Of a stretch of 64,000 bases of DNA, positions 36,034 through 54,258 are shown one piece after another. Source of the stretch: an uncultured Gemmatimonadales bacterium. Lineage in GTDB: Bacteria > Gemmatimonadota > Gemmatimonadetes > Gemmatimonadales > Gemmatimonadaceae. The number at the start of each line of letters is the position of its first letter. Position 1 is the stretch's first letter. The notes beneath the pieces are model-generated. The model made no database searches, was not told the origin of the DNA, and saw nothing but the letters and a program-made list of their open reading frames with translations. The translations under genes and the position numbers were made by a program. The stretch covers positions 2,336,001-2,400,000 of the forward strand of contig CAWKMU010000003.1 of the NCBI GenBank assembly GCA_963850905.1. Direction: 5' to 3'.

Positions 36034-36370
36034 AACGGTGGGGTCATGGGCTAGGGGACGACCACCGCACGTGGGACTCGGCGGGTAGGGGCGACGCAAT
36101 GCGTCGCCCTACGGTGCGGCAATGCATCGCGGGATTCGGTGGCGCCCGCACGCGAGCGCGCGGACGTTGTGTGTGGTTGCGCCAACGGCGGGCGACGCAT
36201 GCGTCGGCCCCACGGTGCGGCAATGCATCGCGATTCGGTGGCGCCCGCACGCGAACGCGCCGACATTGTATGTGGTTGTGCCAACGGCGGGCGACGCATT
36301 GCGTCGCCCCTACCCGCCGCACGACAACCATCGTTGTAATCCGTTGACCCCGATCCCTGACCTCGCCGCT
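36034..36370. repeat. REPIN/BIME-like cluster: three REPs, two ~100-bp tandem units, perfect 30-bp inverted repeats, outer heptamer arms
   Basis: 36080-36109 is the exact reverse complement of 36289-36318; internal units duplicated. Confidence 0.88.
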
Positions 36371-38495: not shown

Positions 38496-38951
38496 ATGCG
38501 CATTACGACCTGGGCGGAGTACGGGCTGATTTGTGCTCTGCACTTGGCCAGGCGCGCGACCGAAGGCCCCGTGACCGGCCGCGAGTTGGCGGCGCTGGAG
38601 CGGCTGCCGGCCGACTACGTCGAGCAGATTCTGTTGCGTCTGCGACGGGCGGATGTGGTGCGGAGCACACGAGGCGCGCACGGTGGCTACGTGCTGGCGC
38701 GGCCCGCCGAGTTGATCTCGGTTCGTGAGCTCATTGCGGCGTCCGAGGGAACGACCTTCGACCTGCACTGTGTCAGTCACCCGGTCGAAGAAGAGCGCTG
38801 CTCGGCCTCGCACAATTGCAGCATTCGGCCGGTGTGGGTGCTCCTCCAGCAAAAGATCGACGACGTGCTGGAAGGCGTGCACCTGTCGGACCTCCTGGAC
38901 GAGGAGGCCGTCGTCCGACAGCGGGTTGGCCTCCCGGTACTGCAGGCGTAG
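38496..38951 (+). CDS. Rrf2-family regulator with three Cys (IscR-like)
   Basis: YVEQILLRLRR..VRSTRGAHGGY; C-x9-C-x5-C. Confidence 0.92.
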   Translation: MRITTWAEYGLICALHLARRATEGPVTGRELAALERLPADYVEQILLRLRRADVVRSTRGAHGGYVLARPAELISVRELIAASEGTTFDLHCVSHPVEEERCSASHNCSIRPVWVLLQQKIDDVLEGVHLSDLLDEEAVVRQRVGLPVLQA

Positions 38952-38987
38952 GCCGCTGGCCAGCGCCCGGCGCGCGTCCACCATCGC

Positions 38988-39560
38988 GTGCTGAAGCCCG
39001 ACTTCATTCGGAGTTGGCAAGCGGACCGCGCGCGCCGCGCACAGGCGACGGCGTACGTTGCCACGCTGCTGGCGGAGCCATCGGCGTCGGATGTCCGTTG
39101 GCTGACAGAGGGCGCGACGGCCGGCGACGAGGACCACGCCCGGTGGGAGCTGCGGTACGCGCGGTGTGCCGCGGGGTTGCTCGCTGCGCGGCGTGACGCG
39201 CTCGACGACCGTACCGCGTCACTCGTCTCGGCCGCCCTCGAGCGTGCGTGGCGACGAGACGCCCGCGTCGCCCCCGACCGTCGAGAGATCGCGACGCGGC
39301 AATTCAACACGCGGCTCGCCGCCTACACCGACGCTCTGGCTGAGAAAGATGGTCGCGAGGGCGCCAGCACCAAGCTCGCGCGCGTGTTGCTGGGCTTTTC
39401 GGGGCGTCTCGATCCCACGCCAACTGAGTTGGCTGCGGCAGGCGAACGCCTCGGCGGATATCTGCGCGAGAGCTCCGACGCGCTGAGACAAGCGTTTGGC
39501 GCGGCCGCATTGCCGGAAAACGAGCGGCCGTCGGCGGCGGCTGCGCGTCCCAAAAAATAG
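38988..39560 (+). CDS. Hypothetical helical protein
   Basis: 190-aa ORF on the same strand after Rrf2; no recognised motif. Confidence 0.6.
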   Translation: MLKPDFIRSWQADRARRAQATAYVATLLAEPSASDVRWLTEGATAGDEDHARWELRYARCAAGLLAARRDALDDRTASLVSAALERAWRRDARVAPDRREIATRQFNTRLAAYTDALAEKDGREGASTKLARVLLGFSGRLDPTPTELAAAGERLGGYLRESSDALRQAFGAAALPENERPSAAAARPKK

Positions 39561-39657
39561 GACCGCGTTCCGCTCGCGCGTCCGGCCGCGTACAAACAAA
39601 AACGCGAAAGATCTTTATGTAGATTCTTACGCGATCACGATCATTGCGTGACACAGC

Positions 39658-39685
39658 TTGACATAGGTCGCAGTCTCCGTACCTT
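39658..39685 (+). promoter_or_regulatory. Putative sigma70 promoter of the susC/susD locus
   Basis: TTGACA-16 nt-TACCTT, with AT-rich sequence upstream. Confidence 0.55.
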
Positions 39686-39773
39686 GGCGCCCTTCGGCAT
39701 TCATACGCCGTGCACCCGGTTGATTCGACTGTCAACCTGGTGCACGGCGCAGACGTTCATGCGGAGGAGCGCA

Positions 39774-42768
39774 ATGCACAGACTCGTTCGGCGCAGAGGA
39801 CACTGTCGGGTCATGGCACTCTGTGTCGCCGCGGCTGTCGCTAGTGGATTGGCGAGCAGCGCGGGGGCACAGACCAGAATCACGGGACGGGTTGTGGACC
39901 CTGACAATGCCCCGATTGGGACCGCGCAGGTCCAAGTGACCGGCACCACCATCGGCACCAACAGCTCGGATAGCGGCACCTTCACGCTGCAAGTCCCGGC
40001 CGACGGAAAGACCCTCACCGTCCGTCGCATTGGCTTCCTGGGGAAGACGGTGCCCATCACGGCTGGGCAGACGAGCTACACGATTACGCTCACGCGCGAC
40101 GTGCTGCGTCTCGAGGCGCAGGTCGTGACGGGCGTCGCGACGACGGTGTCGTCGCAAGAGCTCCGCCAACGACGTCGCAGTCGTCAACACCCAGGCGGTC
40201 AACGAGGTGCCCGCGCCTACGATCGAGAACGCCATTCAGGGGCTCGTGCCCGGAGCGCTCATCTCGCAGAACAACGGTGGTGAGCCCGGCGGGGGCATGC
40301 AGATCCAGATCCGCGGGGTCACGTCGATCAATCGCCAACGCCTCGCCGCTCTACGTGATCGACGGCGTGATCATGTGACAACGACCAGGCCAGGAGCCAG
40401 GGAACAACGCGATCACGTTCTCGACCGATGGCGGCGTCCAGCAGGACCCGACGGACCTCGGCACGAACCGGATCGCCGACTTCAATCCGGAAGACATCGA
40501 GTCGATCGAGGTCCTCAAGGGCGCGTCCGCCTCGGCGATCTACGGATCGCAGGCGTCGGCGGGCGTCGTCATCATCACGACGAAGCGGGGCAGGGCGGGA
40601 AGCCCGCCTGGAACTTCTCGCAGAAGGTCGGCCACTTCGAGGCGGCCGCACACGATGAACATTCGCCAGTTCCCCACGCTGGCGAGCGCGCAGGCATGGT
40701 ATGTGAACGACGTCAAAGGCGGCGCTACCGGGTCGGCGCTGGCGGCTGACAACGCGTTCATTCAGGGCATCTACGCGGGCAACCAGGAGTACCAGACTCA
40801 GCTCTTCGGCAGCAAGCAAGCGTCCTACGAGACGGACTTGAGCGTGAGTGGGACATCTGGGCCAGACGCAGTACTTCCTCTCGGCGCTGTCCAAGTTCGA
40901 CAACGGCTCGCTGCTGAATACGGGATACAACAAGCAGTCGATCCGGTCCAACGTCACGCAGCAGATCGGCAGCCATCTGTCGGCCACGGCCAACCTGTTC
41001 TACGCCCACTCGACCTCGAATCGCGGCATCACGGGCAACGACAACAACGGCATCAGCCCGTACGACGTGTTCTGGTATACGCCCGGGTTCATGAATCTGA
41101 ACCACGTGAATGCCGATGGGACGTGGGGCCGCAACTACTTCGGCAACGCGAACCCGTTCGCGGACACGTAAGACATGTCGACGCCGGAGAACATCCAGCG
41201 ATTCATCGGCGGCGGCAACATCAATTGGACAGCCTTACAGCACAGAGCACCAGTCACTGCAGGTCAACGTGCTTGGGCGGGGCGGATATCGCTCACGTGC
41301 AGGACGACGCTCTTCGCGCCATCGAACATCCAGTTCGAGCAGGCGCAAGCCCTTCCAGGGTGTCGCACGACGCAGACGGCCGATAACTCAGTACATCAAC
41401 TACTCGATCAATCTGATCCACCACTACACGGGTCTCTCCTGGCTCGACGCCACGACGTCCGCCGGATTCGTCCGCGAGAAGCGCGGACTAATTAATCCGG
41501 AGACCGTGTCGCAAAACCTGCTCGCGGGCTTGGATAACCCGGCGTCGGGCACGGTGCAGACGAACTTCTACAACAGCACTGCCGCGCACGACCAGTCGCT
41601 GTACGCCAGGAGCAGCTGCTGCTCGCTCGACTCGCGTCTGTCGGTAGCCGCAGGCGTGACGGCGGAGCGGTCGACCAACGATGGCCACATCAACAAGTTC
41701 TACTGCTATCCGCACTATCGCGGCCTCGTATCGCATCCCGCAGTTCGTCTGTTCATCGACGAGCTCAAGCTGCGTGCCGCCTATGGCCAGTCGGGCACAG
41801 CAGCCGCAACTACGGCGTGCGCTACACAGCCGACTCGACCGCGGTGGATGCCGGGCCTGCCAGGCGAGTTCCAGCCGGCTAATTGTCGGCGATCCGAACA
41901 TCTAGCCAGAGTCAGAGACGGAGATCGAGACTGGGCTTCGATGCGACGATGTTCCACTCCCGGGCCCAGTTCACCTTCACAGTCTACCAGAAGCGGGTCA
42001 CGAACCTGTTGCTGCGAAGCGAACTGAGCCCGTCGCGCGGCTACAGCTATCAGTGGCTGAACGGCGGACGAGTTCACGAACCAGGGCGCGGAGATCTCGC
42101 TCAGCGCGACGCCGATTCAACTGCGCAACGGATTCACTGCCGTGAGCACGATCAGCTACTTCCGCAACTACAGCGTCGTGAACTCGTTGGCCGTTCCGTC
42201 GTTTGACGTGTTCTTCGTCGACGATCACGCCAGGGCGTTCGGTCACCGACGTCGTCAACGCGAACTACTCGGGCGTGCAGCCGCAGCTGGGCGATGTGAT
42301 GCCGGATTTCACGATGGATTTCAACCAGGAGATCCACTACGGCCCCTTCCAACGCGCACGCGGTCGTGCAGTGGAACAAGGGCGGGGCGATGATGAACCA
42401 GACGGAGCTTTATTACGACTACGGCTCGCTCTGGGGCGATTCGGCGTACGCGGCGAACTGGGCGAAGCGGTTCAACAACAACGACTACAACTGGATCGAG
42501 GGCGCCGGGTTCGTGAAGTTGCGGTCTCTGTGGCGCTCAACTACACGCTGCCGCAACAAGTGGTTCAGCGGCTTCGCAGGCGGACGTTTCTCGAGCGTGC
42601 GTCTCTCGCTCGAAGGCCGGAACCTCCTGCACTTGTACAACAGCGGTTACAACGGTCTGGACCCCGAGATTGCGTGGCGGCGGCAGCCAGAACCTGATGC
42701 GTAACATCGAGATCACGCCGTACCCACCATCCCGCAGCTATTTCCTCTCACTCGACGTGGGCTTCTGA
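39774..42768 (+). CDS. SusC/RagA-family TonB-dependent transporter, many frameshifts and in-frame stops
   Basis: Signal peptide, N-terminal ITGRVVD domain, plug QIRG..S / NPEDIESIEVLKGASASAIYG..AS.GVVIITTK, KLRAAYG, GDPNI*PE, C-terminal Phe (SLDVGF). Confidence 0.88.
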
Positions 42769-42770
42769 CG

Positions 42771-44373
42771 ATGCCGATTTCTCAACGCGTGACCGGCAGC
42801 CGTCCGGAGCGCAGTATCGCACACGGGCACGGCACACTCTCCGAGCGAGCGTCCTCGCGGCGCACGATCGTGCTTGCTAGCCGCGGTCGCCTGTACAGAC
42901 AGCGCCGTGCCGTATTTCGACGCACCAAGCCGGAATTCCCAACTCGCACAACCGGCATCCAAAACGCGGTGACCGGCTTTTTCTCCGGGATGCGCGTGGA
43001 TGCCTATCTGTATGCGTACATCTCAGCGGGGTACGCCCGCGATCTGTTTTATTTCGTCTGCGCGGCCCCGTCAGTGCTGACGATCCCGCGGGGCTTGGTA
43101 CCGGTCGCACCCGGCAACTTCTTCTTCAACGACACGTGGGATAACGAATATCTGACGATCAGGCAGGCGAACGCGATCCTGACGAGCCTCGCCAGCGGTC
43201 CAGGTTCACGTCGCAACAAGTCGCGGCGATTCAGGGCGTCGTGCAGACGATGAAAGCCTACAAGTTCATGTCCTGGCCGAGACGCGCGACACGCTCGGAA
43301 TCCCGCTCTACGCGATGGACGGCGACCCGACGAGCCCACCGTACTGCAACAAGGACGTGTGGAAGTACATCGTCGCGTTGCTCGATTCGGCGAGGGTAAT
43401 CTCAAGACCGCCGGCTCGATTCCGTTGCCCGTCAACGTTGCCGCCAGGATTCGCGGCCGTGTCATTGCAGGCGGCGCCGAGCACGGCTCTGGGCTCGTTC
43501 GCCTCGTTCAACCGCGCGCTCGCCGGCAAGGCCGGGCTCGAGTAGGCGTACGCCATATGCCAGAAACACGCCGGCCACACATCCAACACCCACGACTGCC
43601 TGGGGGGCCATGGTTCGGCGCCTGCAAGCGGCGGACAGCGCGCTCACAGCGTCGGCGCTGTACAACCCGCCGTGATCGCGCCGCCGGTGGCGGGGCCGTT
43701 CCGCCGGTCCCTACATCGTGTATCACAACTTCAGCGGAGCGTCCGGGCGACATCCAGAACGAAATCTTTACGTCGTATTTCAATTACAACACGACTCTGG
43801 GATCTCCAGTACACTGTTGACACGCTCAACGATCTCCGGTGGCTCAACAAGTTCGCGCCCGACCCCAACCCGGTGCAGGTCGCCCAGTACGCCGGCGTGT
43901 CTCGAGCGCCAAGAACTACGTTCCCTACTCGTCGGTCTCCGCGCCGATTCCCGATCGTCCGGGCCGAGGAGCTGGCCTTGGTGGAGGCGCAGATCCAACT
44001 CGGGCTGGGAAATTTCGCCAAGCCGCTTAGCCTCGTGAACCAGGTGCGAACCCAGGCGGGCGGCAGCAACCTCACGCCGTACCCGGCGACGGACGCCTCT
44101 GGTGGCAACGCGTTCGTGCAGGTTCGGAAAGACCTCATGAAGGAGCAACGGATCTCGACGGTGTTCGGAGATGAGCGGCGACCGGATGATCGCCCTTCGC
44201 ATGTACCACCTCGAGGCCGTTGCGGACACGACGTGGCAGTCTACAGGCCAGGACCCGATTCTCTGGTCGCCGCCGCGAACGGCCACCCGACCGATTACCA
44301 CACGACTATCTCTTCGATACCGACGACAGGAGTACACGGAACGCGGCGGTTCTACACGCTGACATGCCCGTGA
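42771..44373 (+). CDS. RagB/SusD-family lipoprotein, frameshifted
   Basis: Follows susC by 2 bp; ..AAVAC lipobox-like motif; FPIVRAEELALVEA..LVNQVR..AG, KEQR. Confidence 0.8.
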
Positions 44374-45506
44374 GGCTGCCACTTGGTAGCTGGCTGCCCC
44401 GTCGAACGCCGCGCGCTCTGCGCGGCGTTCGTCGTGGGGGGCCTCTGTGCTGCCGGTGTATCTCGGCGCCCAGGGGGCCGGAGCCCAACCGGGCTCCGGC
44501 ACCCTGCACCCCAAGATCCTTATCAGCTACGACATGGAGGGCGTCTCCGGACGCGCTGACGCCGGATTACGTGCTGTTCGACCACCCCGCCCAGTACGCT
44601 ATCGGGCGCAAGGCGCTGACGTCCGACGTCAACGCGGCCATCCGGGGGCTCGTCAAGGGCGGGGCCGGCTCGATCTGGGTTCAGGATGCGCACGGGTCCG
44701 GGAACGTGTACGAGCCCGATCTCCTGGTCAGCGAGATGGACCCACACGCGTCGTTCGATTTTCGGTCGCACTCATATGATCCGTACTCGACCGGTCTCGA
44801 TGGCTCCGTCGACGCCATCGTGTGCATCGGCGCCCACGCCCGGGCGAACACGCCCGGGTTCATGGCGCATACCGTCACCTTCGACGTCGATTTCCGCGTC
44901 AACGATGTCGAATTCAGCGAGATACACCTGATCGCTGCGTCGGCGGCCCGCTGGGGGATTCCCGTGATCATGGGCTCCGGCGATGACGTGCTGCGGGAGC
45001 AGGTCAAGACGGATTTCCCGGAGCTCGAGTATGCGACGGTGAAAACGGCCAAGAGCCATGGCGTCGCGGAGCCACTGGCGCCGGGCGAAGCGGAGCGCCG
45101 TATCGAGGCCGCGGCACAGCAGGCGATGCAAAAATTCCGGGCGGGGAAGTTCCGGCCGTACTATCTGGAGCCACCCTTCGACATTCGCCTCTCGTTCCCG
45201 GATTACGAGGAGGCTGAAGGCGCCGCTCTCAATCCGAACGTCTTGCCCGACGGCGATCTCGCCGTGCGGATCGTGCGCCCGTCCTTCGTCGAAGGGTACG
45301 AGATCGCTCGGCTGTCCATCGGCCTGGCGATCCAGCACGCCGAGATGGCAATGCTCATGCGCCGGCTCGGCCAGGATTCGACAACACGGAAAGCGATGGG
45401 CGAGTTGGAGGGCGGGATCATCGCGCGTTGGCTCGATCCGGACCACGCGCCGGCGTGGGCAAAGACCGGCACCAAAGCCCGCGCCCAGAACGCGCTTTTG
45501 GGGTGA
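44370..45506 (+). CDS. M55-family (DppA-like) D-aminopeptidase with a probable signal peptide, N-terminal frameshifts
   Basis: ILISYDMEGVSG (alternate frame), DVNAAIRG, DAHG, IGAHARA, FMAHT, SGDD. Confidence 0.85.
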   Translation: MRLPLGSWLPRRTPRALRGVRRGGPLCCRCISAPRGPEPNRAPAPCTPRSLSATTWRASPDALTPDYVLFDHPAQYAIGRKALTSDVNAAIRGLVKGGAGSIWVQDAHGSGNVYEPDLLVSEMDPHASFDFRSHSYDPYSTGLDGSVDAIVCIGAHARANTPGFMAHTVTFDVDFRVNDVEFSEIHLIAASAARWGIPVIMGSGDDVLREQVKTDFPELEYATVKTAKSHGVAEPLAPGEAERRIEAAAQQAMQKFRAGKFRPYYLEPPFDIRLSFPDYEEAEGAALNPNVLPDGDLAVRIVRPSFVEGYEIARLSIGLAIQHAEMAMLMRRLGQDSTTRKAMGELEGGIIARWLDPDHAPAWAKTGTKARAQNALLG

Positions 45507-45528
45507 TACGTAGGACACCGAGGTTCCT

Positions 45529-47446
45529 GTGAAGAGCAGAGACTGGAGAGAGGCCGGCACGCAACCCAATCTGCGCGTGGGTTGGTGGCGCCGGTCCGTC
45601 ATGCCGGTGATGGTGGGGATGGTCATGGCTGCGCCGCAGCTCGTCGGTCAGCAACCGGCCGCACCGCCCGGACCGCCGCCAGGTTACACCAAGCAGGACT
45701 CGATGATCGCGATGCGCGACAATGTGCGGCTGCACATCGCGATCTACACGCCGACCGATGCCCAAGGCCCGCTGCCGATCATGTTCCTGCGTACGCCCTA
45801 CGGCATCGACGGGTACGCTCAATGGTTCGACAACTATCTCAAGGAGCTCGCGGCCGACAAGTACATCTTCGTCTTCGAGGACATTCGCGGCCGGTACGAG
45901 TCGGAAGGGCAGTTCGTGATGCAGCGGGCGCCGGCCCACCGGAAAGACCCCAAGGCGGTCGACGAGAGCACGGACGCGTACGATACAATCGACTGGCTGG
46001 TGAAACACGTGCCCAACAACAACGGCCGCGTGGGTGAGCTCGGGATCTCGTACGACGGCTGGACGACGGTCATGACAATGCTCGACCCCCATCCAGCGCT
46101 CAAGGCGGTCTCTCCGCAGGCGTCACCGGTCGACATGTTCCTCGGCGATGACTTCCACCACAACGGCGCGTTCCGGTTGAGCTACGGCTTCGAGTACGCA
46201 TCGTCGATGGAAACGCCCAAAGGCCAGCCCCGATTCACCTTCGACCAATACGACACCTACAGCTGGTATCTCGGCCTCGGTCCGCTCTCGACCGTCGACG
46301 CGAAGTATCTCCACGGGAAGATCCCATCCTGGGAAGATTTCGTGAATCACCCGAACTACGACGAGTTCTGGCAGCGGCAGACGGCGTTGCCCTACCTCGA
46401 CCGCGTGAATGTGCCGACGCTGAGCGTCGCCGGCTGGTGGGATCAGGAAGACTTCTATGGACCGATCACCATCTACGAGGCGCTCGAGAAGCACGATACC
46501 GAGCACAAGAACTTCCTCGTCGTCGGCCCGTGGTATCATGGCGGCTGGGGGTTCGAGGCCGAGGGAAACAAGCTTGGGGCGATCGACTTTGGCAGCCCGA
46601 CGGCGGCGTATTTCCGCTCGGAGATCATGGCGCCCTTCTTCGCCTATTATCTCAAGGATCGCGGCACCGGGAAGTTCCCGAAGGTCAGGACCTTCGAGGC
46701 CGGCACGAACAAATGGCGAGAGTTCGACAGCTGGCCGCCGAAGACCGGCGTCGCGAGCGAACATCTCTACTTCACGTCGGCCGGTGGTGCGTCATTCGAC
46801 AAGCCGACACGCGCGGCCGGCGACAGCGGATTCGACAGCTATGCGTCCGATCCCCGGCACCCGTGCCGTACCGACATCGGCCGATCCCCAGAGGCATTGG
46901 GTGGCGCACCTGGCTGGTCGAGGACCAGCGCTTCGTGAACGATCGGCCCGACGTGTTGACGTACGAGACCGCACCATTGGACGCCGACGTGACGCTTGCC
47001 GGGTCGATCACCGCGCATCTGTTCGCCGCCACGACCGGGCAGCGATGCCGATTGGGTGGTGAAGCTGATCGACGTGTATCCCGACACCATGCCGGCCCCG
47101 CAGGCGTCGATGGGCGGCTATGAGTTGATGGTCGCCAACGATGTGTTCCGCGGACGATTTCGTGAGAGCTTACACGACGCCGCACCCGATCACGCCGAAT
47201 CAGGTGGAGGAGTACAAGGTCGACCTCCACACCCAGGACTACAAGTTCCTGAAAGGCCACCGGATCATGGTCCAGGTGCAGAGCAGCTGGTTCCCGATCA
47301 TCGACCGGAACCCGCAACAGTACGTGCCCAACATTTTTGCAGCGACGGACGCCGACTACCGCGTCGCACGCGAGCGGGTCTACCGCAACGGCGCACAGGC
47401 ATCGTATCTCGACCTACCCGTCGAGACCGGCACGACCACGCAGTAG
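45529..47446 (+). CDS. CocE/NonD hydrolase, alpha-amino acid ester hydrolase-like, frameshifted
   Basis: RTPY, GISYDG, DDFHHNGAFRL, WDQED, GPWYHG, DWVVKLIDVYP, QSSWFP; start may be ATG 45601. Confidence 0.92.
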
Positions 47447-47483
47447 ACGCGGCGCACTCGTCCAGTTCCCCCGAGGAGGAATA

Positions 47484-49403
47484 GTGTCACTTGGTCCTTC
47501 ACGTCCCGTGCGCCGCATGGGCGCCACCGTTGCTGTCCCCGGCGCGTGGCTCACGCTACTCGTCGTGGCGAGCCTGGTTGATTCGGCGTACCTCCGCAGT
47601 CAACAACCGGTCGGTCCGCCGCCCGGGTACAGCAAGCAAGACTCCATGATCGCGATGCGCGACCATGTGCGTCTGCACGTCGCGATCTACACGCCAATCG
47701 GTGCGTCAGAGCCGCTGCCCATCATGCTGCTGCGCACCCCATACGGCATCGATGGCTATGCAGCGGAGTTTGGCAGTTACCTCAAGGAGCTCGCTGCCGA
47801 CAAGTACATCTTCGTGTTCGAGGATTTGCGTGGCCGGCACGAGTCGGAAGGCCAGTTCGTCATGTTACGGCCGCAGCGCAACCCGAAGGACCCGGCGGCC
47901 ATCGATGAGAGCACCGACGCGTACGACACAATCGACTGGCTCGTGAAGCACGTACCGAATAACAATGGTCGCGTCGGCGAGTTGGGCATCTCCTATGATG
48001 GGTGGACGACGGTCATGACGACGCTCGATCCGCATCCCGCGTTGAAAGCGGTGTCGCCACAGGCATCGCCGTCCGACATGTTCATCGGCGACGATTTTCA
48101 CCACAACGGCGCGTTCCGGCTGAGCTACGGCTTCGAGTATGCGGCACTGATGGAAACCGGGAAGGACCAGGAGATGTTCGCCTTCGACAGGTACGACACC
48201 TACGACTGGTACCTGCGACTCGGCCCGCTGTCAACGCCGACGCGAAATACCTGCACGGCAAGATCCCGATCGTGGGAAGACTTCGTGAACCATCCTAACT
48301 ACGATGCGTTCTGGCAGCGGCAAGGCGTGCTGCAGTTCCTCGATCACGCGACTGTGCCGACCCTGAACGTCGCTGGGTGGTGGGACCAGGAAGACTTCTA
48401 CGGACCCGTCACTATCTACGAGGCGCTGCAGAAGCACGACGCCGCGCACAACAATTTCCTCGCGGTTGGCCCCTGGAACCATGGAGGCTGGGCCGATTCT
48501 TCTGGACAGAAGCTCGGCGACATCGACTTCGGCAGTCCGACATCGGACGATTTTCGTCGAAATGTCATGGCGCCGTTCTTCGCCTACTATCTGAAGGGCC
48601 GTGGCCCAGGCGGTTTTCCCGGCGCGGTGACGTTCGAGGCGGGCGCGAATAAGTGGAGGCACTTCGACAGTTGGCCACCGAAGACGGGCGTGACGCCGGA
48701 GCGCCTCTACTTCCAGGCGAACCACGCCGTGTCATTCGACGTACCGAAGGCCGCCGCGAGTGATAGCGGGTTCGACAGCTACGTCTCGGATCCCTTCCAT
48801 CCGGTGCCCTATCGCCGCCGTCCGATTCCGCCGACCTACATCCCAGGCGGATCCGGGTGGACGACATGGCTCGTCCAGGACCAGCGCTTCGTCGATGGCC
48901 GGCCGGATGTCCTGACGTACGAAACTCCGCCCCTCGATCACGATGTCACGATGCTGGGTGCGATCACGGCCCATCTGTTCGCCGCGACGACAGGGTCAGA
49001 CGCGGATTGGATCGTGAAGTTAATTGACGTTTATCCGGACACGGCGCCAACCGGCATGAAAGCGTCGTATGGTGGCTACGAGCTCATGGTCGCCAACGAT
49101 GTGCTTCGTGGGCGCTTTCGCAACGGCTACATCACGCCACAACCGATCGCACCGGGCCAGGTGGACGAGTACAAGATCGATCTGCATACGCTGGACTATC
49201 GGTTCTTGAAGGGCCACCGAATCATGGTACAGGTGCAGAGCACCTGGTTTCCGATCATTGATCGGAATCCGCAGCGCTACGTGGCCAGCATCTTCGCTGC
49301 GAAGGATGCCGACTACCAGATCGCACGCCAACGCATTTATCGGAGCGGCGCCCACGCGTCGTACCTCGAATTGCCCGTCGAAACGGGTACGACGACGCAG
49401 TGA
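47484..49403 (+). CDS. CocE/NonD hydrolase, alpha-amino acid ester hydrolase-like, second paralog
   Basis: Same motifs as the first copy (GISYDG, WDQED, GPWNHG); short compensating frameshift near 48235-48270. Confidence 0.93.
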   Translation: MSLGPSRPVRRMGATVAVPGAWLTLLVVASLVDSAYLRSQQPVGPPPGYSKQDSMIAMRDHVRLHVAIYTPIGASEPLPIMLLRTPYGIDGYAAEFGSYLKELAADKYIFVFEDLRGRHESEGQFVMLRPQRNPKDPAAIDESTDAYDTIDWLVKHVPNNNGRVGELGISYDGWTTVMTTLDPHPALKAVSPQASPSDMFIGDDFHHNGAFRLSYGFEYAALMETGKDQEMFAFDRYDTYDWYLRLGPLSTPTRNTCTARSRSWEDFVNHPNYDAFWQRQGVLQFLDHATVPTLNVAGWWDQEDFYGPVTIYEALQKHDAAHNNFLAVGPWNHGGWADSSGQKLGDIDFGSPTSDDFRRNVMAPFFAYYLKGRGPGGFPGAVTFEAGANKWRHFDSWPPKTGVTPERLYFQANHAVSFDVPKAAASDSGFDSYVSDPFHPVPYRRRPIPPTYIPGGSGWTTWLVQDQRFVDGRPDVLTYETPPLDHDVTMLGAITAHLFAATTGSDADWIVKLIDVYPDTAPTGMKASYGGYELMVANDVLRGRFRNGYITPQPIAPGQVDEYKIDLHTLDYRFLKGHRIMVQVQSTWFPIIDRNPQRYVASIFAAKDADYQIARQRIYRSGAHASYLELPVETGTTTQ

Positions 49404-49471
49404 TCGGCTTGACATCAGTCCCAGCCAGACGCGCAGCGTCGTCGACACGAGGGCCGTAACGACGTTACACC

Positions 49472-50842
49472 GTGTCAGCACGCTGCGTGGGCGTTCCGTC
49501 GCTCCGATTCGGAGCGGTTTCACGCTACTCGTCCTCGGGGTCGCCATGGGCGCATGCGGGACCGCCCGGTCGGCGCCGGCATCGCCAAGCGTCACCAACT
49601 GGGCGCGGGCGCACGCGATTCGGGTCCCTGCAGTCGACCAACCAAACGCCGATTCCTCATTCGGCTTTCTCGACTCGCTGGTCGGTTCAGCACGCATCCT
49701 CGCGCTTGGCGAGTTGATTCACCGCGGCCACGAGCCTCTCGAGTTCCGCAACGAGGTGATTCGCTATGCGGTCACGCATCTGGGATTCACCGCCGTGGCG
49801 CTGGAGTCGGGTTTCACCGAAAGCGCCGTGGTCGACAGCTTCATTCACGGCGGAGCGGGCAACGTCGACAGCGTGCTTCGCGCGGGGCTCAACTGGAACT
49901 TTTCGACACTCCCAGAGAATCGTGAGCTCGTGCAGTGGCTTCGCGAGCACAACGCGCATGCTGCTCACCAGGTCCGCTTCTATGGCTTCGATCTCACCGG
50001 AGGCGACCCCGCCAACAAGGCCGATCTCTACCTCGGCGCGCCCAAGGCCATTTCGGCGGCGTTGACGTACATGATCGCGGTCTCGCCGCACTCCGCCGGC
50101 GATTTCAGGTCGGGCCTCGCTCCGCTCATTCTGCGATTCACTCCGCTGCGCTTTAAGGAGTACACTCCGGGAGAGCGGCGTCGGCTGACGAACCTCCTCG
50201 ATAGTCTGTATCGCACGCTCGTCGCCGACTCAGCGCACGATGTGCGCGCCAGCTCAGCGGTGGCATACGCGCGCGCGGTGCGGAATGCGTGGACCGCGCA
50301 ACGACTCAATGAGCTCCTCGGGATGTCGGCATCGGAATTGGCCGACTCCGCAAGGCCGCGGAACATTCTTGCGCGACTCGCTGATGGCCGAGAACGTCCG
50401 CTGGATCGTGCAACAACACGCAGATGGGCGTGTGCTGGTATGGGCTCACAACGCTCACATCATCAACGCCCCGACGACCGTTTGGGAGTTGGGACCTAAC
50501 GGGCAGGGCGTGCCCGTGGGTCCGGAGTATCGAATGGCAGGGCAATATCTGCGTGAATGGTACGGCAATCTTGAGGTCATTATGCTGTCGACGACATCGA
50601 AGACGGTTGGCTTCAACGGCAGCCCGTCGGATCCCGGCAGCTTCGACGCGGCGTTGGCGCCGATCGGCATCTCACCGTTCGTGCTCGATCTACGAGCGAG
50701 CGATGATCTTCCGCCGGTCCGGGCACAACTGGCGCGGCCATGGCCATTCAGAGTGCACACGATGTTTCAACGCATCGTCCCGCGAGAAGCGGCCGATGCC
50801 ATCGTCTACTTCGATCAAGTCACCGCGACGAAGGATCAATGA
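49472..50842 (+). CDS. Erythromycin esterase (EreA/EreB-like) family lipoprotein, frameshifted
   Basis: GVAMGAC lipobox-like motif; LALGELIH..E, ALES, WLREHN, FYGFD, RDSLMAENV, WAHNAHI; start approximate. Confidence 0.82.
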
Positions 50843-50882
50843 AACAGGCCGAGGGGTTACGGACCGACAACCAGGGGGAAGC

Positions 50883-51961
50883 ATGCTCAGACGGCTCATT
50901 GGGAGAAGCGGAACATCGTGTTCGCGGCGATTGCGGTTTCTGCCGCCGTGCTGCCTGGTCAGGGGCCGAAAGTCCTGATCATCTACGACATGGAGGGCAT
51001 TTCCGGGGTGATCAGACCTCCATACGAGCGCTTTGGGGCGCCCGAATATCCGCAGGGACGCGAGTCACTGACGGCTGACGTGAATGCGGCGATTCGAGGA
51101 CTCAAGGCCGGCGGTGCGGGGTCCATCTGGGTGGAGGATGGGCACGGGTCCGGCAACAGCGAAGAGCCGGATATCCTGGTGGACAAGATGGACAAGAACG
51201 CGAACTTCGAGTTTCGCGAGCGTCGCTACGACCCCTACTCCACGGGGATCGATGGGTCGTTCGCCGCGATCGTCTGCGTCGGGATGCACGCGCGCGCCCG
51301 CACCAGCGGGTTCATGGCGCACACCGGGACCTTCAATGTCGCGTGGAACGTGAATGGTGTCGACCTGAGCGAAACCCACATCGTCGCGCTGTCCGCCGCA
51401 CGCTGGGGCATCCCCGTGGTCATGGTCTCGGGAGACCAGGTGCTCAAAGAACAACTCGCCACGGATTTCCCGGAGCTGCAGTACGCCGAAGTGAAGGAGT
51501 CGCACGGCCACAGTCTGGCCAATGCAGTGCCGCGCGCAGAAGCGGACCGCCGGATCGAAACGGCGGCCCGCGAGGCGATGCAGCGATTCACGGCCGGCAA
51601 GTTCCGTCCGTACTACCTGCCGGGCCCGTACGAGTTTCACATGACGTTCCGCACACGAGAACAGGCCGAGATGGCCGCCGGCACCCGCGGCGTTGTGCCT
51701 GACGGCGACCTGGGAGTTCGCTTCACGAGTCCCACGTACATCGATGGCTACCTGATCGCCGAGGATGTCGTCTCGCACGGCATGAACTACTTGCCCTTGC
51801 TGCTGCGAGTGCTCCGACACCAGCCGGGCGGCGACGCGCTCATCAAGCAGTGGACGGATCTCATCTGGCTCCAGATCGATCCGGACAGCCTGCCTGCGTG
51901 GTCGCTGCCCCCCGCGCAGGTGGCTAGTGATCAACACAAGCGCTATTACGGCGATCAGTAA
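50883..51961 (+). CDS. M55-family D-aminopeptidase, second copy, probable signal peptide
   Basis: IIYDMEGISG, DVNAAIRG, DGHG, VGMHARA, FMAHT, SE, VSGDQ; start 50883 requires a frameshift (in-frame GTG at 50918). Confidence 0.9.
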
Positions 51962-52078
51962 GCCCGGCTAGCGCGCGGCTGATCGCGGCGGGCTGTTGCC
52001 ACCCCCACGCGCAAGCCGTCACTCGAGCGAGACGCCTCGTGTTTCGCTCGAGTGTCATGGTCGCCTTGGGGGGCACCA

Positions 52079-52645
52079 ATGGGCAAGAAAGACGCGATGT
52101 TGGTTGGAGCCATCGGGCTCCCATTGCTCGTCGTCGCGATCGCGACGATCGGATGCTTCGGTCGCCAGGGCCTGCCAGGCGTCCGCCGGCGTCTCTTGCT
52201 GCGCATCGCGGCGTGGGCAGCGCTCGGATGCGTGGCGGGTGACGTCGCACTCATCGTGGTCGGCTGCCCCTTGGGCGCCGCACTCGAGCACGCGCACCCG
52301 GGGATGATGAATGCCGCGATCTGCGGCTGGCACGCGACGATCTTCCCGGGCCTTTGGGCGTACTGGTTTCTCGCGACCTGCACGGCGATGTTCGCGATCT
52401 GGGCGTGGCTCGCCCCGCACGTGCCGGCCTGGGAATCGAGTGGCGGCCGGCTCGCCGTGGTGTCCGCCCTCATGGCATTGCCGTTGGCCACGATGCTCAT
52501 CACGGCCGTCTCGACCAACCCCGGCGGCTTGCCGCCCGGTGAGCTGGCGCAGGCACTGGTGTTGTGCGTACCCACAGTCTTCGGCGCGGTCTATGTCCCG
52601 CGGCTCACCGTGCCATTTCTGAAGCCCGGCACGTTCGCGATCTAG
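52079..52645 (+). CDS. Hypothetical multi-pass membrane protein
   Basis: About five hydrophobic segments. Confidence 0.6.
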   Translation: MGKKDAMLVGAIGLPLLVVAIATIGCFGRQGLPGVRRRLLLRIAAWAALGCVAGDVALIVVGCPLGAALEHAHPGMMNAAICGWHATIFPGLWAYWFLATCTAMFAIWAWLAPHVPAWESSGGRLAVVSALMALPLATMLITAVSTNPGGLPPGELAQALVLCVPTVFGAVYVPRLTVPFLKPGTFAI

Positions 52646-52681
52646 AAGCGTTTCGGGAGGGCGCTAAAGCGCCCTGGAGGT

Positions 52682-53662
52682 CTACTCTCTTGCGGCGTTC
52701 AGGCCGCACCGGAGGTGCTCCAACACGCCGGGCCGCGGTTCAGGCGTCCCCCAGTACGGAGTCTTATTGACATCGACCGGGACAATCGTGCCGTCGGCGT
52801 CCATGACGCAATCCGTTCCGTGGAACTCCAGTTGCATCGCACTCGCAGCGCGCCGACCGACGCCGGCCGCCCTCGCTGCATCGGCACTTGCCGCACCAAG
52901 CGCGATGTCTTCGCCGTCCACGGTCCAAAAGAACGAATGCTCTCGACGACGAGCGCCGAAGCGCTGGTGCTTGATTGCAAGGTCCGTCCAGATTTGCGAG
53001 ACGACGGTGGCCGGTCCGACACCGTGGACCCGAAAATACGCGCCCTCTGGGTTCTCGATGTATCGCTCAATGACCAATGTTGAGTCGCTCCACGCGGCGT
53101 CCGGTACTTCGTCGCGCCGGCACACGCGATACGCCTCTTGCCGACGCACCTCGTCGTTCAGACCACCTGTGAACCGCTCCAATGTCTGGTCGCCACGTGC
53201 AACGAGCCGTCGCTCGGGCCCACCGGCGGCATTGAGGTTCGTCTTGATGATGACCCGCTCATCGGCGGGGCCCGCGTGCGTTGCCGCTGCAGACGGCAAG
53301 CCGTGCGTGGCTAGCCGCTCGTGCAACGTCCGCTTGCGGACGTCGGTCGCGTGTGCATTGAGCGTCACCACGCCGCGCGCTGCGAGCGAATCGTACAGGG
53401 CCGACTCGTGCTCCAGCACCCCATCGGTCTCGCTGGTGTCGATGTGCATCACCACGACGCGGGCGGCCCGGCCGATCGCGTTCGCCAGCCGAACTCCGGA
53501 TTCGCCCGGCTTGATCGCCAGGCGCATCGCGTGGGGGCACACCGCTTGGATGAGATACTTGTCCCACGCATTACACTCGCACACGACTACCGGGGCAGAC
53601 CCCAAATACCGGGTGAGCTTCCGGCGTACGTCGGTGCGGAGGCTAGCGAGCAGGCTCCCCAT
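52682..53662 (-). CDS. Hypothetical ATP-grasp-like protein
   Basis: VIIKTNLNAAG, VIERYI, GTDCV...VDVNKTP pattern; GGAGG RBS. Confidence 0.6.
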   Translation of the reverse strand: MGSLLASLRTDVRRKLTRYLGSAPVVVCECNAWDKYLIQAVCPHAMRLAIKPGESGVRLANAIGRAARVVVMHIDTSETDGVLEHESALYDSLAARGVVTLNAHATDVRKRTLHERLATHGLPSAAATHAGPADERVIIKTNLNAAGGPERRLVARGDQTLERFTGGLNDEVRRQEAYRVCRRDEVPDAAWSDSTLVIERYIENPEGAYFRVHGVGPATVVSQIWTDLAIKHQRFGARRREHSFFWTVDGEDIALGAASADAARAAGVGRRAASAMQLEFHGTDCVMDADGTIVPVDVNKTPYWGTPEPRPGVLEHLRCGLNAARE

Positions 53663-53867
53663 AGGCCTCCTGTCTGCGGAAGGAGACAGCAATCATCCTG
53701 CCACTTGGGTGAGGGCGTTTCGTCCCAAAAAATGAGACCACGGCGCTCAAGGGAGACAACGGCAGCGACCTTGGGCGGCCAGGCTGTCGTCTGTTCTCTA
53801 CAATCTGTAGGGCTACTTTGTTGGTCTACCGAGGGCGCTTCGCGCCCTAGAGAGCAGCGAGGCAGAA

Positions 53868-53925
53868 AGTAGAAAGTAGACAACGGCTGGGTCCGCGGGC
53901 CGCCAGCCTTTGTCTACTTTCTACT
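53868..53925. repeat. Long hairpin with a 16-bp perfect stem of AGTAGAA heptamers, downstream of tRNA-Leu
   Basis: agtagaaagtagacaa / ttgtctactttctact, plus inner ggctgg/ccagcc. Confidence 0.8.
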
Positions 53926-53963: not shown

Positions 53964-54048
<85 letters not shown>

Positions 54049-54071: not shown

Positions 54072-54258
54072 GGGGGTCAGGGGCCAGACGGGCACGAACG
54101 GCGGGGTCAGGGGTCAGGGGTCAGGAAACACACCGAGAACCCAGTCACGGCTGCACCATAACCTGCCTTGGACCGGTAGGGGCGACGCATGCGTCGCCCG
54201 GAGTTGTCGTTAGGTCGTCGTTCCCCGACCCCTGGTCCCGGACCCCTGACCCCTGTGT
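54072..54258. repeat. Composite element: (GGGGTCA)n arm, REP (54165-54200), (TGACCCC)n arm
   Basis: aacggcggggtcaggggtcaggggtcagg ... gtaggggcgacgcatgcgtcgccc ... cccctgacccctg. Confidence 0.82.

What the first reader, a model, noticed from the sequence alone, without database searches (positions are those of the whole stretch)
39658..51961. SusC/SusD locus loaded with D-aminopeptidases, amino-acid-ester hydrolases and an Ere-like esterase: candidate D-peptide/antibiotic scavenging system
Seen: one same-strand, closely spaced run of promoter, susC, susD, M55, CocE/NonD, CocE/NonD, Ere-like, M55. All five enzymes have signal-peptide-like or lipobox-like N-termini, and there is no glycoside hydrolase. 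Established: SusCD pairs import macromolecule fragments; M55/DppA cleaves D-Ala-D-Ala and D-Ala-Gly-Gly; alpha-amino acid ester hydrolases act on alpha-amino esters and amides including D-phenylglycyl beta-lactams; Ere-family enzymes include macrolide esterases. Inference: this is a PUL-like locus for D-amino-acid peptides, aminoacyl esters or peptide antibiotics rather than glycans. I am not aware of this combination being characterised.
Basis: partly seen in the sequence, partly recalled or inferred. Interest (0 to 1): 0.8.

Follow-up and report, generated by a model that had tools for sequence, protein, structure and literature searches.

The report
Importer-linked D-peptide trimming locus
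An uncultured Gemmatimonadales bacterium carries an inserted seven-gene block that pairs an outer-membrane importer of the kind known for sugars with five likely exported hydrolases and no sugar-cutting enzyme, and it probably feeds on short peptides bearing mirror-image (D) amino acids rather than destroying antibiotics, though no substrate has been tested.

Summary
The locus is real. A conserved promoter-like site precedes susC, susD, M55a, CocE1, CocE2, an Ere-fold gene and M55b on one strand. The window's frameshifts are most likely assembly errors. SusC passes TIGR04056 in an intact orthologue, SusD has the SusD fold, and all five hydrolases keep their catalytic residues. The block is absent from the same chromosomal site, beside tRNA-Leu, in three congeners. 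The full seven-gene set occurs in only 3 near-identical species. The conserved core is importer plus M55: all 5 of 10 genus genomes with this M55 place it in a SusCD locus. In the M55a clade, 7 of 7 loci lie directly behind a TonB-dependent importer, which outside this genus is an unrelated Oar-type receptor, mostly with S12 D-peptidase-family and CocE genes. Both M55s belong to a subfamily, apparently unstudied, with signal-like leaders and a C-terminal extension predicted to dimerise. Most of that subfamily has no importer nearby. The antibiotic reading is weak: the Ere-like protein scores 60 against a cut-off of 750 and is closer to Bcr135/136. Verdict: probable D-peptide utilisation locus, a new variant of peptide-type SusCD systems. 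Substrate untested.

The parts
39658..39685 (+). sigma-70-type promoter-like site, TTGACA-N16-TACCTT
   Evidence: sequence; same motif upstream of orthologous susC in G278, G405, G402 but not G343; not called by scan
39707..39748 (+). 5' leader hairpin before the susC ribosome site
   Evidence: -51.7 kcal/mol, z -4.55 for 39690-39800; orthologues fold a hairpin here but z is only -0.3 to -2.3
39774..42768 (+). SusC/RagA-type TonB-dependent transporter (frameshifted in this assembly)
   Evidence: intact G278 orthologue 1004 codons, TIGR04056 413 bits vs cut-off 368, TIGR04057 54.5 vs 46.2; tblastn pieces; one of 22 SusC-like genes in the genome
42771..44373 (+). SusD/RagB-type lipoprotein (frameshifted in this assembly)
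   Evidence: intact orthologue L001:1629-3239; profile hits SusD structures; AF2 pLDDT 88.5; Foldseek 98 matches at E<=1e-3, all 40 listed rows SusD/RagB-type
44370..45513 (+). M55a: long-form M55 (DppA-family) Zn peptidase with signal-like leader
   Evidence: Pfam M55 2.7e-48; DppA-equivalent D/E/H/H/E and catalytic H invariant in 62 sequences; clade tied to importers
45529..47446 (+). CocE1: CocE/NonD (S15) hydrolase of the alpha-amino acid ester hydrolase type
   Evidence: TIGR00976 266 vs 66; 1MPX E 5e-146, 4PF1 E 1e-144; Ser-Asp-His triad, two Tyr and acidic cluster kept
47484..49403 (+). CocE2: tandem paralogue of CocE1 (76% identical)
49414..50842 (+). Ere-fold hydrolase, Bcr135/136-like; start codon uncertain; one frameshift at 50366
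   Evidence: Pfam PF05139; PDB 2RAD/3B55 E 4.8e-19, EreC 6e-5; below all Ere cut-offs; ExxH, E, R and H motifs present
50883..51961 (+). M55b: second long-form M55 (51% to M55a) with C-terminal helical extension ending YYGD
   Evidence: Pfam 4.7e-57; AF2 pLDDT 93.8; 1HI9 Z 35.4, rmsd 2.0 over 271 residues, model range 17-294; homodimer prediction via the extension
53965..54048 (-). tRNA-Leu(CAG): right-hand landmark of the inserted region (not part of the operon)
   Evidence: flanking gene and smpB only 273-310 nt apart in G084, G334, G403 versus 14.7 kb here

Best explanation
This is an accessory seven-gene block, likely one operon, in which a SusC/SusD pair probably imports short peptides or aminoacyl amides that carry D-amino acids and five likely periplasmic hydrolases would trim them to free amino acids for growth. 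SHOWN: gene identities and folds, conserved catalytic residues, insertion at an otherwise empty site, and recurrence of importer + long-form M55. INFERRED steps: (1) SusD binds and SusC imports the peptide, as for RagAB; (2) the two Zn-dependent M55 enzymes remove N-terminal D-residues (D-Ala/Gly type, by analogy with DppA), probably as dimers held by the new C-terminal extension; (3) the two AEH-type serine hydrolases, whose acidic cluster binds a free alpha-amino group in known members, release other N-terminal residues or cleave aminoacyl esters/amides, with stereo-preference unknown; (4) the Ere-fold protein is an optional ester/amide hydrolase; (5) products cross the inner membrane by transporters encoded elsewhere. 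The likeliest natural source is cell-wall stem-peptide debris or D-residue-containing non-ribosomal peptides in soil organic matter.
For: Importer-M55 link: all 5 of 10 genus genomes with the long M55 have it in a SusCD locus, in three different layouts (full set in G000/G278/G405; SusC-SusD-CocE-M55b in G343; SusC-SusD-Ere-M55a in G402), plus SusD-M55b on contig L075. M55a clade (SH-aLRT 99.8): 7 of 7 loci have an importer gene directly upstream, SusD in 3 and an Oar-type receptor (PF25183) in 4; L094 (68% to M55a, not in the tree) has the same layout. So the link survived a change of transporter family. [quoted passage not shown] DppA is the only PDB sequence match of M55b and stands far above all other structural matches (Z 35.4 vs 9.8); it is described as a D-aminopeptidase (PMC2651629, PMC7017815, passages). 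Tight spacing and conserved promoter. Dimer model: score 0.80, best of 3 controls 0.00; that mark was reached by 20 of 30 solved homodimers and 1 of 23 single chains (counts hold only roughly: own alignment, zinc riding along); runs agree in at least 89% of contacts, pLDDT at least 92.
Against: No substrate, expression or localisation data. M55b is only about 26% identical to DppA and far below the DppA equivalog cut-off (95 and 120 vs 430 bits), so D-specificity is extrapolated from one enzyme; a Fervidobacterium M55 raised amino-acid release from feather keratin, an L-protein (PMC7017815, passages). Most long-form M55 genes have no importer nearby: of 80 metagenome loci 7 were near one (1 duplicates G343), 28 lay beside lepA, 22 had neither, 23 were too short; 6 of 6 fetched from the genus of G406 lay beside lepA; 15 of 18 non-genus Gemmatimonadota regions had no SusC in up to 20 kb. 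The Oar-type loci reduce to about three independent lineages. S12 and CocE genes are abundant (14-15 and 16 in G000) and are not significantly enriched near the genome's other 21 SusC genes (4 vs 2.0 expected within 6 kb, p 0.13). The window's own locus has no S12, racemase, regulator or permease; G000 (82% complete) gave no TIGR01928 match and no DadA over cut-off. The second-best CocE structure, 4PF1, is recalled as an aminopeptidase acting on ordinary L-peptides (paper not held).
Confidence: 0.5

Rival explanations
1. A general peptide/aminoacyl-amide feeding locus without D-specificity: the long-form M55 and AEH-type enzymes are broad aminopeptidases for small L-residues, one of several peptidase-type SusCD loci in a genome that lives on peptides.
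For: Other SusC loci of G000 are followed by S9 peptidases or CocE/S12 genes (L061, L064, L161). All 4 M55 genes of G000 have signal-like leaders. An M55 aided keratin breakdown (PMC7017815). Peptidase-bearing SusCD loci are described in Flavobacterium (bioRxiv 10.1101/2022.09.27.509832, passages). 4PF1 ties with AEH as best structure; its L-aminopeptidase activity is recalled, not read.
Against: The recurring companions of the M55a clade are S12, S13 and a racemase rather than the common L-aminopeptidase families; the only structurally characterised M55 is D-specific.
Confidence: 0.3
2. An antibiotic-inactivating or antibiotic-scavenging island (aminopenicillins/cephalexin by the AEH-type enzymes, macrolides by the Ere-like enzyme).
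For: AEH likeness with full active site; Ere fold with catalytic residues; accessory insertion beside a tRNA.
Against: Ere cut-offs missed by more than tenfold; nearest solved relatives are Bcr135/136, for which only small-ester activity is reported (PMC7979712, passages); Ere gene absent from G343 and all non-genus loci; AEH substrates of that kind are semi-synthetic; 16 CocE paralogues in the genome; no integrase, transposase or efflux gene found in the block; GC3 like host genes, 0.80-0.84 vs 0.78-0.82. Cleavage of natural D-residue peptide antibiotics as food falls under the best explanation.
Confidence: 0.07
3. A pile-up of exported hydrolase genes behind a strong susC promoter in a rearrangement hotspot, with no substrate shared between transporter and enzymes, or a decaying susCD.
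For: Accessory genes differ between congeners and further unrelated genes fill the site next to tRNA-Leu; 22 SusC and 16 CocE genes per genome make chance adjacency easy; susC/susD carry about 100 frameshifts in this assembly.
Against: Importer + M55 persists at three chromosomal positions within the genus and with an unrelated receptor family outside it; 0 of 21 other SusC genes have an M55 within 10 kb (0.2 expected); substitutions in susC/susD are mostly synonymous (196:67 and 108:67), orthologues have intact frames, and short-read contigs lack the extra bases where listed.
Confidence: 0.13

Closest known systems
RagAB of Porphyromonas gingivalis and BT2263-2264 (peptide-importing SusCD pairs); peptidase-bearing susCD locus TRV642_0198-0209 of Flavobacterium collinsii
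   Same: Tandem susC/susD without CAZymes, peptide cargo proposed or shown (bioRxiv 10.1101/755678: search listing only; 10.1101/2022.09.27.509832: passages). The SusD model matches RagB among many SusDs.
   Different: Phylum Gemmatimonadota; partner enzymes are M55, AEH-type S15 and Ere-fold rather than S9/S37/M24/M43; SusD is only 10-16% identical to any solved SusD, so the fold gives no ligand class.
DppA D-aminopeptidase of Bacillus subtilis (MEROPS M55, PDB 1HI9)
   Same: Fold (Z 35.4, rmsd 2.0 A, 271 residues), Zn ligands and catalytic His positions, and location beside a peptide uptake system (PMC7017815 passages).
   Different: About 26% identity; signal-like leader; about 50-residue C-terminal extension with a conserved aromatic-aromatic-Gly-(Asp) end (120 of 120 homologues match the pattern); predicted dimer through that extension whereas DppA is a D5 decamer (PMC2651629 passages); linked to an outer-membrane importer rather than an ABC transporter.
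Alpha-amino acid ester hydrolases of Xanthomonas citri (1MPX) and Acetobacter turbidans (2B4K); S15 peptidase 4PF1
   Same: Full-length match (E about 1e-145), Ser-Asp-His triad, oxyanion tyrosines and Asp-Glu-Asp cluster.
   Different: Natural substrate not established here; the three best structures score almost equally, so beta-lactam acyl transfer cannot be told from aminopeptidase activity; W209 of the Xanthomonas sequence is F here.
Erythromycin esterases EreA-D and Bacillus cereus Bcr135/Bcr136
   Same: PF05139 fold and residues matching EreC E47, H50, E78, R261, H289 by motif.
   Different: Far below Ere cut-offs; closer to Bcr proteins; signal- or lipobox-like leader; not on a mobile resistance cassette.
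D-stereospecific S12 peptidases (Pab87/CubicO, BogQ, TriF, ClbP, Lip3/Lip7)
   Same: S12 genes accompany the orthologous importer-M55 loci; Pab87 is their best PDB hit; these enzymes cleave D-residue bonds (PMC2651629, PMC12903863, passages).
   Different: No S12 gene in the window's own locus; the passages read mention no link of these enzymes to a TonB-dependent importer.

Membership tests
SusC/SusD (RagAB-type) transporter pair | SusC/RagA-subfamily TonB-dependent transporter | tested here: met
   TIGR04056 413.2 vs 368.25 and TIGR04057 54.5 vs 46.2 on the intact G278 orthologue
SusC/SusD (RagAB-type) transporter pair | Tandem downstream lipoprotein with SusD fold and lipobox Cys | tested here: met
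   2-nt gap; Foldseek 98 matches at E<=1e-3 led by SusD structures; Cys at least 90% conserved; Pfam/NCBIfam SusD models gave no hit
Polysaccharide utilisation locus (classical PUL) | Co-localised CAZymes | tested here: not met
   No glycoside hydrolase or lyase among the locus ORFs; all seven genes otherwise assigned
Utilisation locus (any substrate) | Co-transcription and substrate induction | not testable with these tools
   No RNA holder listed; only spacing and a conserved promoter-like motif
Peptidase M55 | Pfam model, fold, binuclear Zn ligands and catalytic His | tested here: met
   PF04951 165 and 194 bits vs 25; D24, E26, H76, H124, H135, E152 invariant in 62 sequences and aligned to DppA D8, E10, H60, H104, H115, E133 (the roles of these DppA residues are recalled)
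DppA D-aminopeptidase (equivalog) | NCBIfam NF058634 cut-off | tested here: not met
   95.4 and 119.7 bits vs 430
DppA D-aminopeptidase (equivalog) | D-stereospecific activity | not testable with these tools
   needs an assay
DppA D-aminopeptidase (equivalog) | Self-compartmentalising decamer | tested here: inconclusive
   Only two copies could be modelled; they pair mainly through residues 291-331, mostly outside the DppA-aligned part; higher oligomers not tested
Alpha-amino acid ester hydrolase (CocE/NonD, S15) | Ser-Asp-His triad, oxyanion Tyr pair and acidic cluster | tested here: met
[quoted passage not shown]
   needs an assay
Erythromycin esterase (EreA/B/D resistance enzymes) | NCBIfam curated cut-offs | tested here: not met
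   60.5/750, 48.8/800, 32.4/750; G402 orthologue 41.4/750
Ere/Bcr136 fold superfamily (PF05139) | Pfam model and catalytic Glu/His set | tested here: met
   72.5 and 67.1 bits vs 26.4; motifs present; Atlas hits all PF05139
Exported (periplasmic) enzymes | Cleavable signal peptide or lipobox | tested here: inconclusive
   No SignalP; hydropathy rule and inspection only
tRNA-integrated mobile island | Empty site in relatives | tested here: met
   273-310 nt in 3 of 5 congeners searched, 3.8 kb in G402, G343 flanks on separate contigs
tRNA-integrated mobile island | Integrase or duplicated tRNA 3' end | tested here: not met
   No integrase in Pfam scan; no tRNA repeat longer than 12-14 nt of chance level in 38901-53900

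The most novel reading that the evidence does not exclude
A dedicated outer-membrane uptake and periplasmic trimming system for D-amino-acid peptides: a D-peptide counterpart of the PUL, built around an unstudied exported, dimeric M55 D-aminopeptidase subfamily that has kept its tie to a TonB-dependent importer while swapping between SusCD (Gemmatimonadota) and an Oar-type receptor (probably Acidobacteriota). It would let abundant soil bacteria eat cell-wall necromass peptides and D-residue peptide antibiotics that ordinary peptidases cannot cut.
Probability: 0.4. Interest if true: 0.78.

Novelty: new variant of a known kind. Interest (0 to 1): 0.55.

Why it matters
D-amino acids from bacterial cell walls build up in aged organic matter, and extracellular D-aminopeptidase activity rises with sediment depth (PMC6752024, passages). 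The library searches run here (listings only) showed no paper on a TonB/SusCD importer coupled to M55 enzymes or on exported M55 enzymes; subscription papers are mostly not covered. If right, the locus names a transporter and five enzymes that can be tested directly for how uncultured soil bacteria recycle D-peptides. It also offers a new M55 architecture and new D-selective biocatalyst candidates. It should not be counted as an antibiotic-resistance locus on present evidence.

Tried and rejected
Promoter/terminator scan found no promoter and no terminator after M55b. Single-sequence PDB search and Pfam/NCBIfam missed SusD; profile and fold were needed. No RNA holder listed. Pseudogene reading of susC/susD rejected: synonymous bias, intact orthologues, and short-read contigs lacking the extra bases at 43744, 43796, 43895, 43953, 44025, 44167, 47040, 47169 and 50366 and supplying missing ones at 46859, 50868 and 50915 (78 further rows were not shown, so most susC indels were not checked this way). 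Enrichment of CocE/S12 near the genome's other SusC genes was not significant. Long-form M55 was not found in 400 phylum-level or 250 family-level draws around G406 at E<=1e-90 and in 7 of 151 genus-level genomes at E<=1e-40, so it is patchy. The taxonomy of the Oar-type loci could not be fixed: cluster look-up gave no organism names and the records are not held as genomes; 'probably Acidobacteriota' rests on GC 0.52-0.56, receptor type and tree neighbours. Fusion search returned 1 protein of 8000 candidates (M55 + esterase): no fusion support. No integrase or att repeat. No racemase route in G000. Paper searches gave nothing on the natural role of AEH or on peptidase activity of Ere-like proteins; the 4PF1 paper (Michalska 2015, title seen in a reference list) is not held, so its findings are recall. 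L094 and L054 dropped out of the IQ-TREE set by my motif filter (L054 is in the FastTree clade). Earlier-scan look-ups by place and sequence were empty. Supplements were not read.

Full report
Setting. The window is G000:C3:2336001-2400000 of a 4.49-Mb, 82%-complete assembly. Relatives at 94-95% protein identity are titled uncultured Gemmatimonadales. L002 is the same DNA as L034 (G278), L001 as L055 (G405), and L074 matches L035 (G343); each is counted once.

Observation. Pfam on 29 ORFs confirmed two M55 genes, two S15+PepX_C genes, an Ere-family gene in two pieces and the N-terminal domains of a TonB-dependent receptor, and found no CAZyme. The window's susC and susD are shattered by frameshifts, so intact orthologues were used. 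G278 SusC passes TIGR04056 (413 vs 368) and TIGR04057. The L001 SusD misses Pfam and NCBIfam, but its 112-sequence profile hits SusD structures (best E 1.8e-8), and its AF2 model (pLDDT 88.5) gives 98 Foldseek matches at E<=1e-3 led by SusD/RagB proteins at 10-16% identity. Gene gaps are -4 to 40 nt. A TTGACA-N16-TACCTT site at 39658-39685 was not called by the scan but is kept in G278, G405 and G402, not G343.

Frameshifts. Against orthologues the window has 49 (susC), 53 (susD), 4, 3, 6, 1 and 0 frame-breaking indels, while substitutions are mostly synonymous (susC 196:67, susD 108:67) with 3 stops in all. Most indel positions are the same against G278 and G405, so they are window-specific. 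Short-read contigs differ from the window at 12 such places among the rows shown, including a 151-nt contig with no other difference at 50366. These are most likely long-read consensus errors; most susC indels were not individually checked.

Enzymes. M55a and M55b (51% identical) keep residues aligned to DppA D8, E10, H60, H104, H115 and E133, invariant in 62 homologues. The M55b model (pLDDT 93.8) matches only 1HI9 (Foldseek E 1e-23; VIA Z 35.4, rmsd 2.0, residues 17-294; next Z 9.8). Both fall far below the DppA equivalog cut-off. They belong to a large subfamily of about 350 residues (best 120 of 1101 hits) with hydrophobic leaders (106 of 113 by a crude rule) and a conserved C-terminal aromatic-aromatic-Gly motif (120 of 120). 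A two-copy prediction scored 0.80 against a best control of 0.00. That mark was reached by 20 of 30 solved homodimers and 1 of 23 single chains, counts that hold only roughly here; contact agreement was at least 89% and pLDDT at least 92. The interface is mainly residues 291-331, largely the part DppA lacks. DppA is itself an oligomer, so likeness may contribute. CocE1 and CocE2 (76% identical) match Xanthomonas AEH 1MPX (E 5e-146), 4PF1 (1e-144) and Acetobacter AEH (2e-142), far above cocaine esterase (1e-57), and keep the triad and the acidic cluster (residue set from PMC3890990, abstract and first third of the text). The Ere-like protein keeps the catalytic motifs (PMC7979712 passages) but scores 60 against 750 for EreB and matches Bcr structures (5e-19) much better than EreC (6e-5).

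Recurrence. Five of 10 genus genomes carry the long M55, and all five have it in a SusCD locus: the full seven genes in G000, G278 and G405; SusC-SusD-CocE-M55b with two S12+DUF3471 genes upstream in G343; SusC-SusD-Ere-M55a in G402. Contig L075 has SusD-M55b. The M55a clade (SH-aLRT 99.8, 7 loci of 85 sequences; FastTree 0.998 with L054 included) also holds L090, L098, L102 and L116, where a non-SusC Oar-type receptor lies directly upstream; L094 has the same layout. These loci add S12 peptidases (best PDB hit Pab87 for the one tested there and for one in G343), CocE, an RpiR/MurR regulator and, in L094, an S13 gene and an OSBS/N-acylamino-acid racemase gene. Pab87 prefers D-Ala-pNA about 65-fold and trims muropeptides (PMC2651629 passages); other S12 members cleave D-residue bonds in lipopeptides (PMC12903863 passages). 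Against generality: of 80 metagenome loci only 7 are near an importer, 28 lie beside lepA, 22 have neither and 23 are too short. Only 3 of 18 non-genus Gemmatimonadota regions hold a SusC, 3-6 kb away and all in one genus. The Ere gene appears only inside the genus.

Base rates. G000 has 22 SusC, 16 CocE, 14-15 S12, 4 M55 and 2 Ere-like genes. No glycoside hydrolase was found among the neighbours scanned around its other SusC genes (a selection of ORFs at E<=1e-8 or 1e-6), several have peptidases, and CocE/S12 enrichment near them is not significant. So 'SusCD without CAZymes' is ordinary for this organism. The M55 link is the distinctive part.

Origin. In G084, G334 and G403 the left flanking gene and smpB are 273-310 nt apart, room for the tRNA-Leu only; here they are 14.7 kb apart. 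The block is therefore an insertion, without integrase or att repeat and with host-like GC3. G343 and G402 carry their versions elsewhere.

Mechanism and rivals. The best reading (0.5) is import of D-residue-bearing short peptides followed by periplasmic N-terminal trimming. A non-stereospecific peptide locus (0.3) remains strong because D-specificity rests on one distant enzyme plus neighbours, an M55 has been tied to keratin breakdown (PMC7017815 passages), and G000 shows no racemase or DadA route. Uncoupled gene pile-up gets 0.13 and antibiotic inactivation 0.07.

Comparison and novelty. It works like RagAB or the peptidase-bearing susCD loci of Flavobacterium (listing; passages), is a true SusCD pair, and is not a classical PUL, a DppA orthologue or an Ere resistance gene by the tests run. 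Searches (listings) showed no description of this combination or of exported M55 enzymes. Earlier AI notes of this scan report similar D-peptide-type SusCD loci in other Gemmatimonadota genomes; they are unchecked and not independent support, and the shared operator and D-to-L route they mention were not found here (the racemase was searched, an operator was not searched systematically). Cheggour 2000, Remaut 2001, Morar 2012, Li 2018 and Michalska 2015 were seen only as citations. Verdict: new variant of a known kind, interest 0.55.

Noticed in passing
window 52682-53692 (-): 336-aa gene with no Pfam/NCBIfam hit; Atlas neighbours are unnamed clusters (0.98), one auto-named ATP-grasp, nearest named ones RimK/D-Ala-D-Ala-ligase-like (0.93). 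It lies between the locus and tRNA-Leu and was not seen at this place in G278 or G405.
   Followed up: partly
L094 3870-17844; L098 478-16703; L116; L102; L090: Probable Acidobacteriota loci: RpiR/MurR regulator, Oar-type TonB receptor, long M55, two to four S12 peptidases, CocE, plus S13 and an N-acylamino-acid-racemase-type gene in L094. A cleaner D-peptide locus than the window's and a good target in itself.
   Followed up: partly
L084, L089, L091, L154-L159 and others: The largest clade of long-form M55 with signal-like leaders sits directly downstream of lepA (28 of 80 metagenome loci; 6 of 6 genomes fetched), with no importer: a possible housekeeping envelope role.
   Followed up: partly
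G000:C3:264718-265563 and C3:1130519-1131334 (L162, L163): The genome's two other M55 genes are short-form but also carry signal-like leaders; M55 matches occur in 190 of 401 phylum genomes, so exported M55 may be general in Gemmatimonadota.
   Followed up: partly
G000:C3:2066000-2086000 (L064); C3:1783000-1803000 (L061); C4:340000-360000 (L161): Other peptidase-type SusCD loci in the same genome: SusC-SusD-CocE-hydrolase-S12 with a divergent S12-S9-CocE run; SusC-SusD followed by S9 peptidases and an esterase (twice).
   Followed up: partly
window 39707-39748: Strong leader hairpin before susC (z -4.55); orthologues fold a hairpin at the same place with different sequence but weaker scores.
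   Followed up: partly
window 36190-36209 and 54180-54199: Palindromic REP-like 20-mer, 2 matches in the window against 0 in 100 shuffles; similar copies lie upstream of the promoter in G405.
   Followed up: partly
L044, L046, L048: In one distant Gemmatimonadota genus: metallophosphoesterase, long M55, DUF5916 barrel-type gene, then SusC/SusD, with S15 genes on the opposite strand (plus S12, M19 and an amidohydrolase in L044).
   Followed up: no
G000 genome-wide: 22 SusC-like genes of one expanded subfamily whose SusD partners largely escape Pfam and NCBIfam models, so annotation pipelines will under-call SusCD pairs in this lineage.
   Followed up: partly
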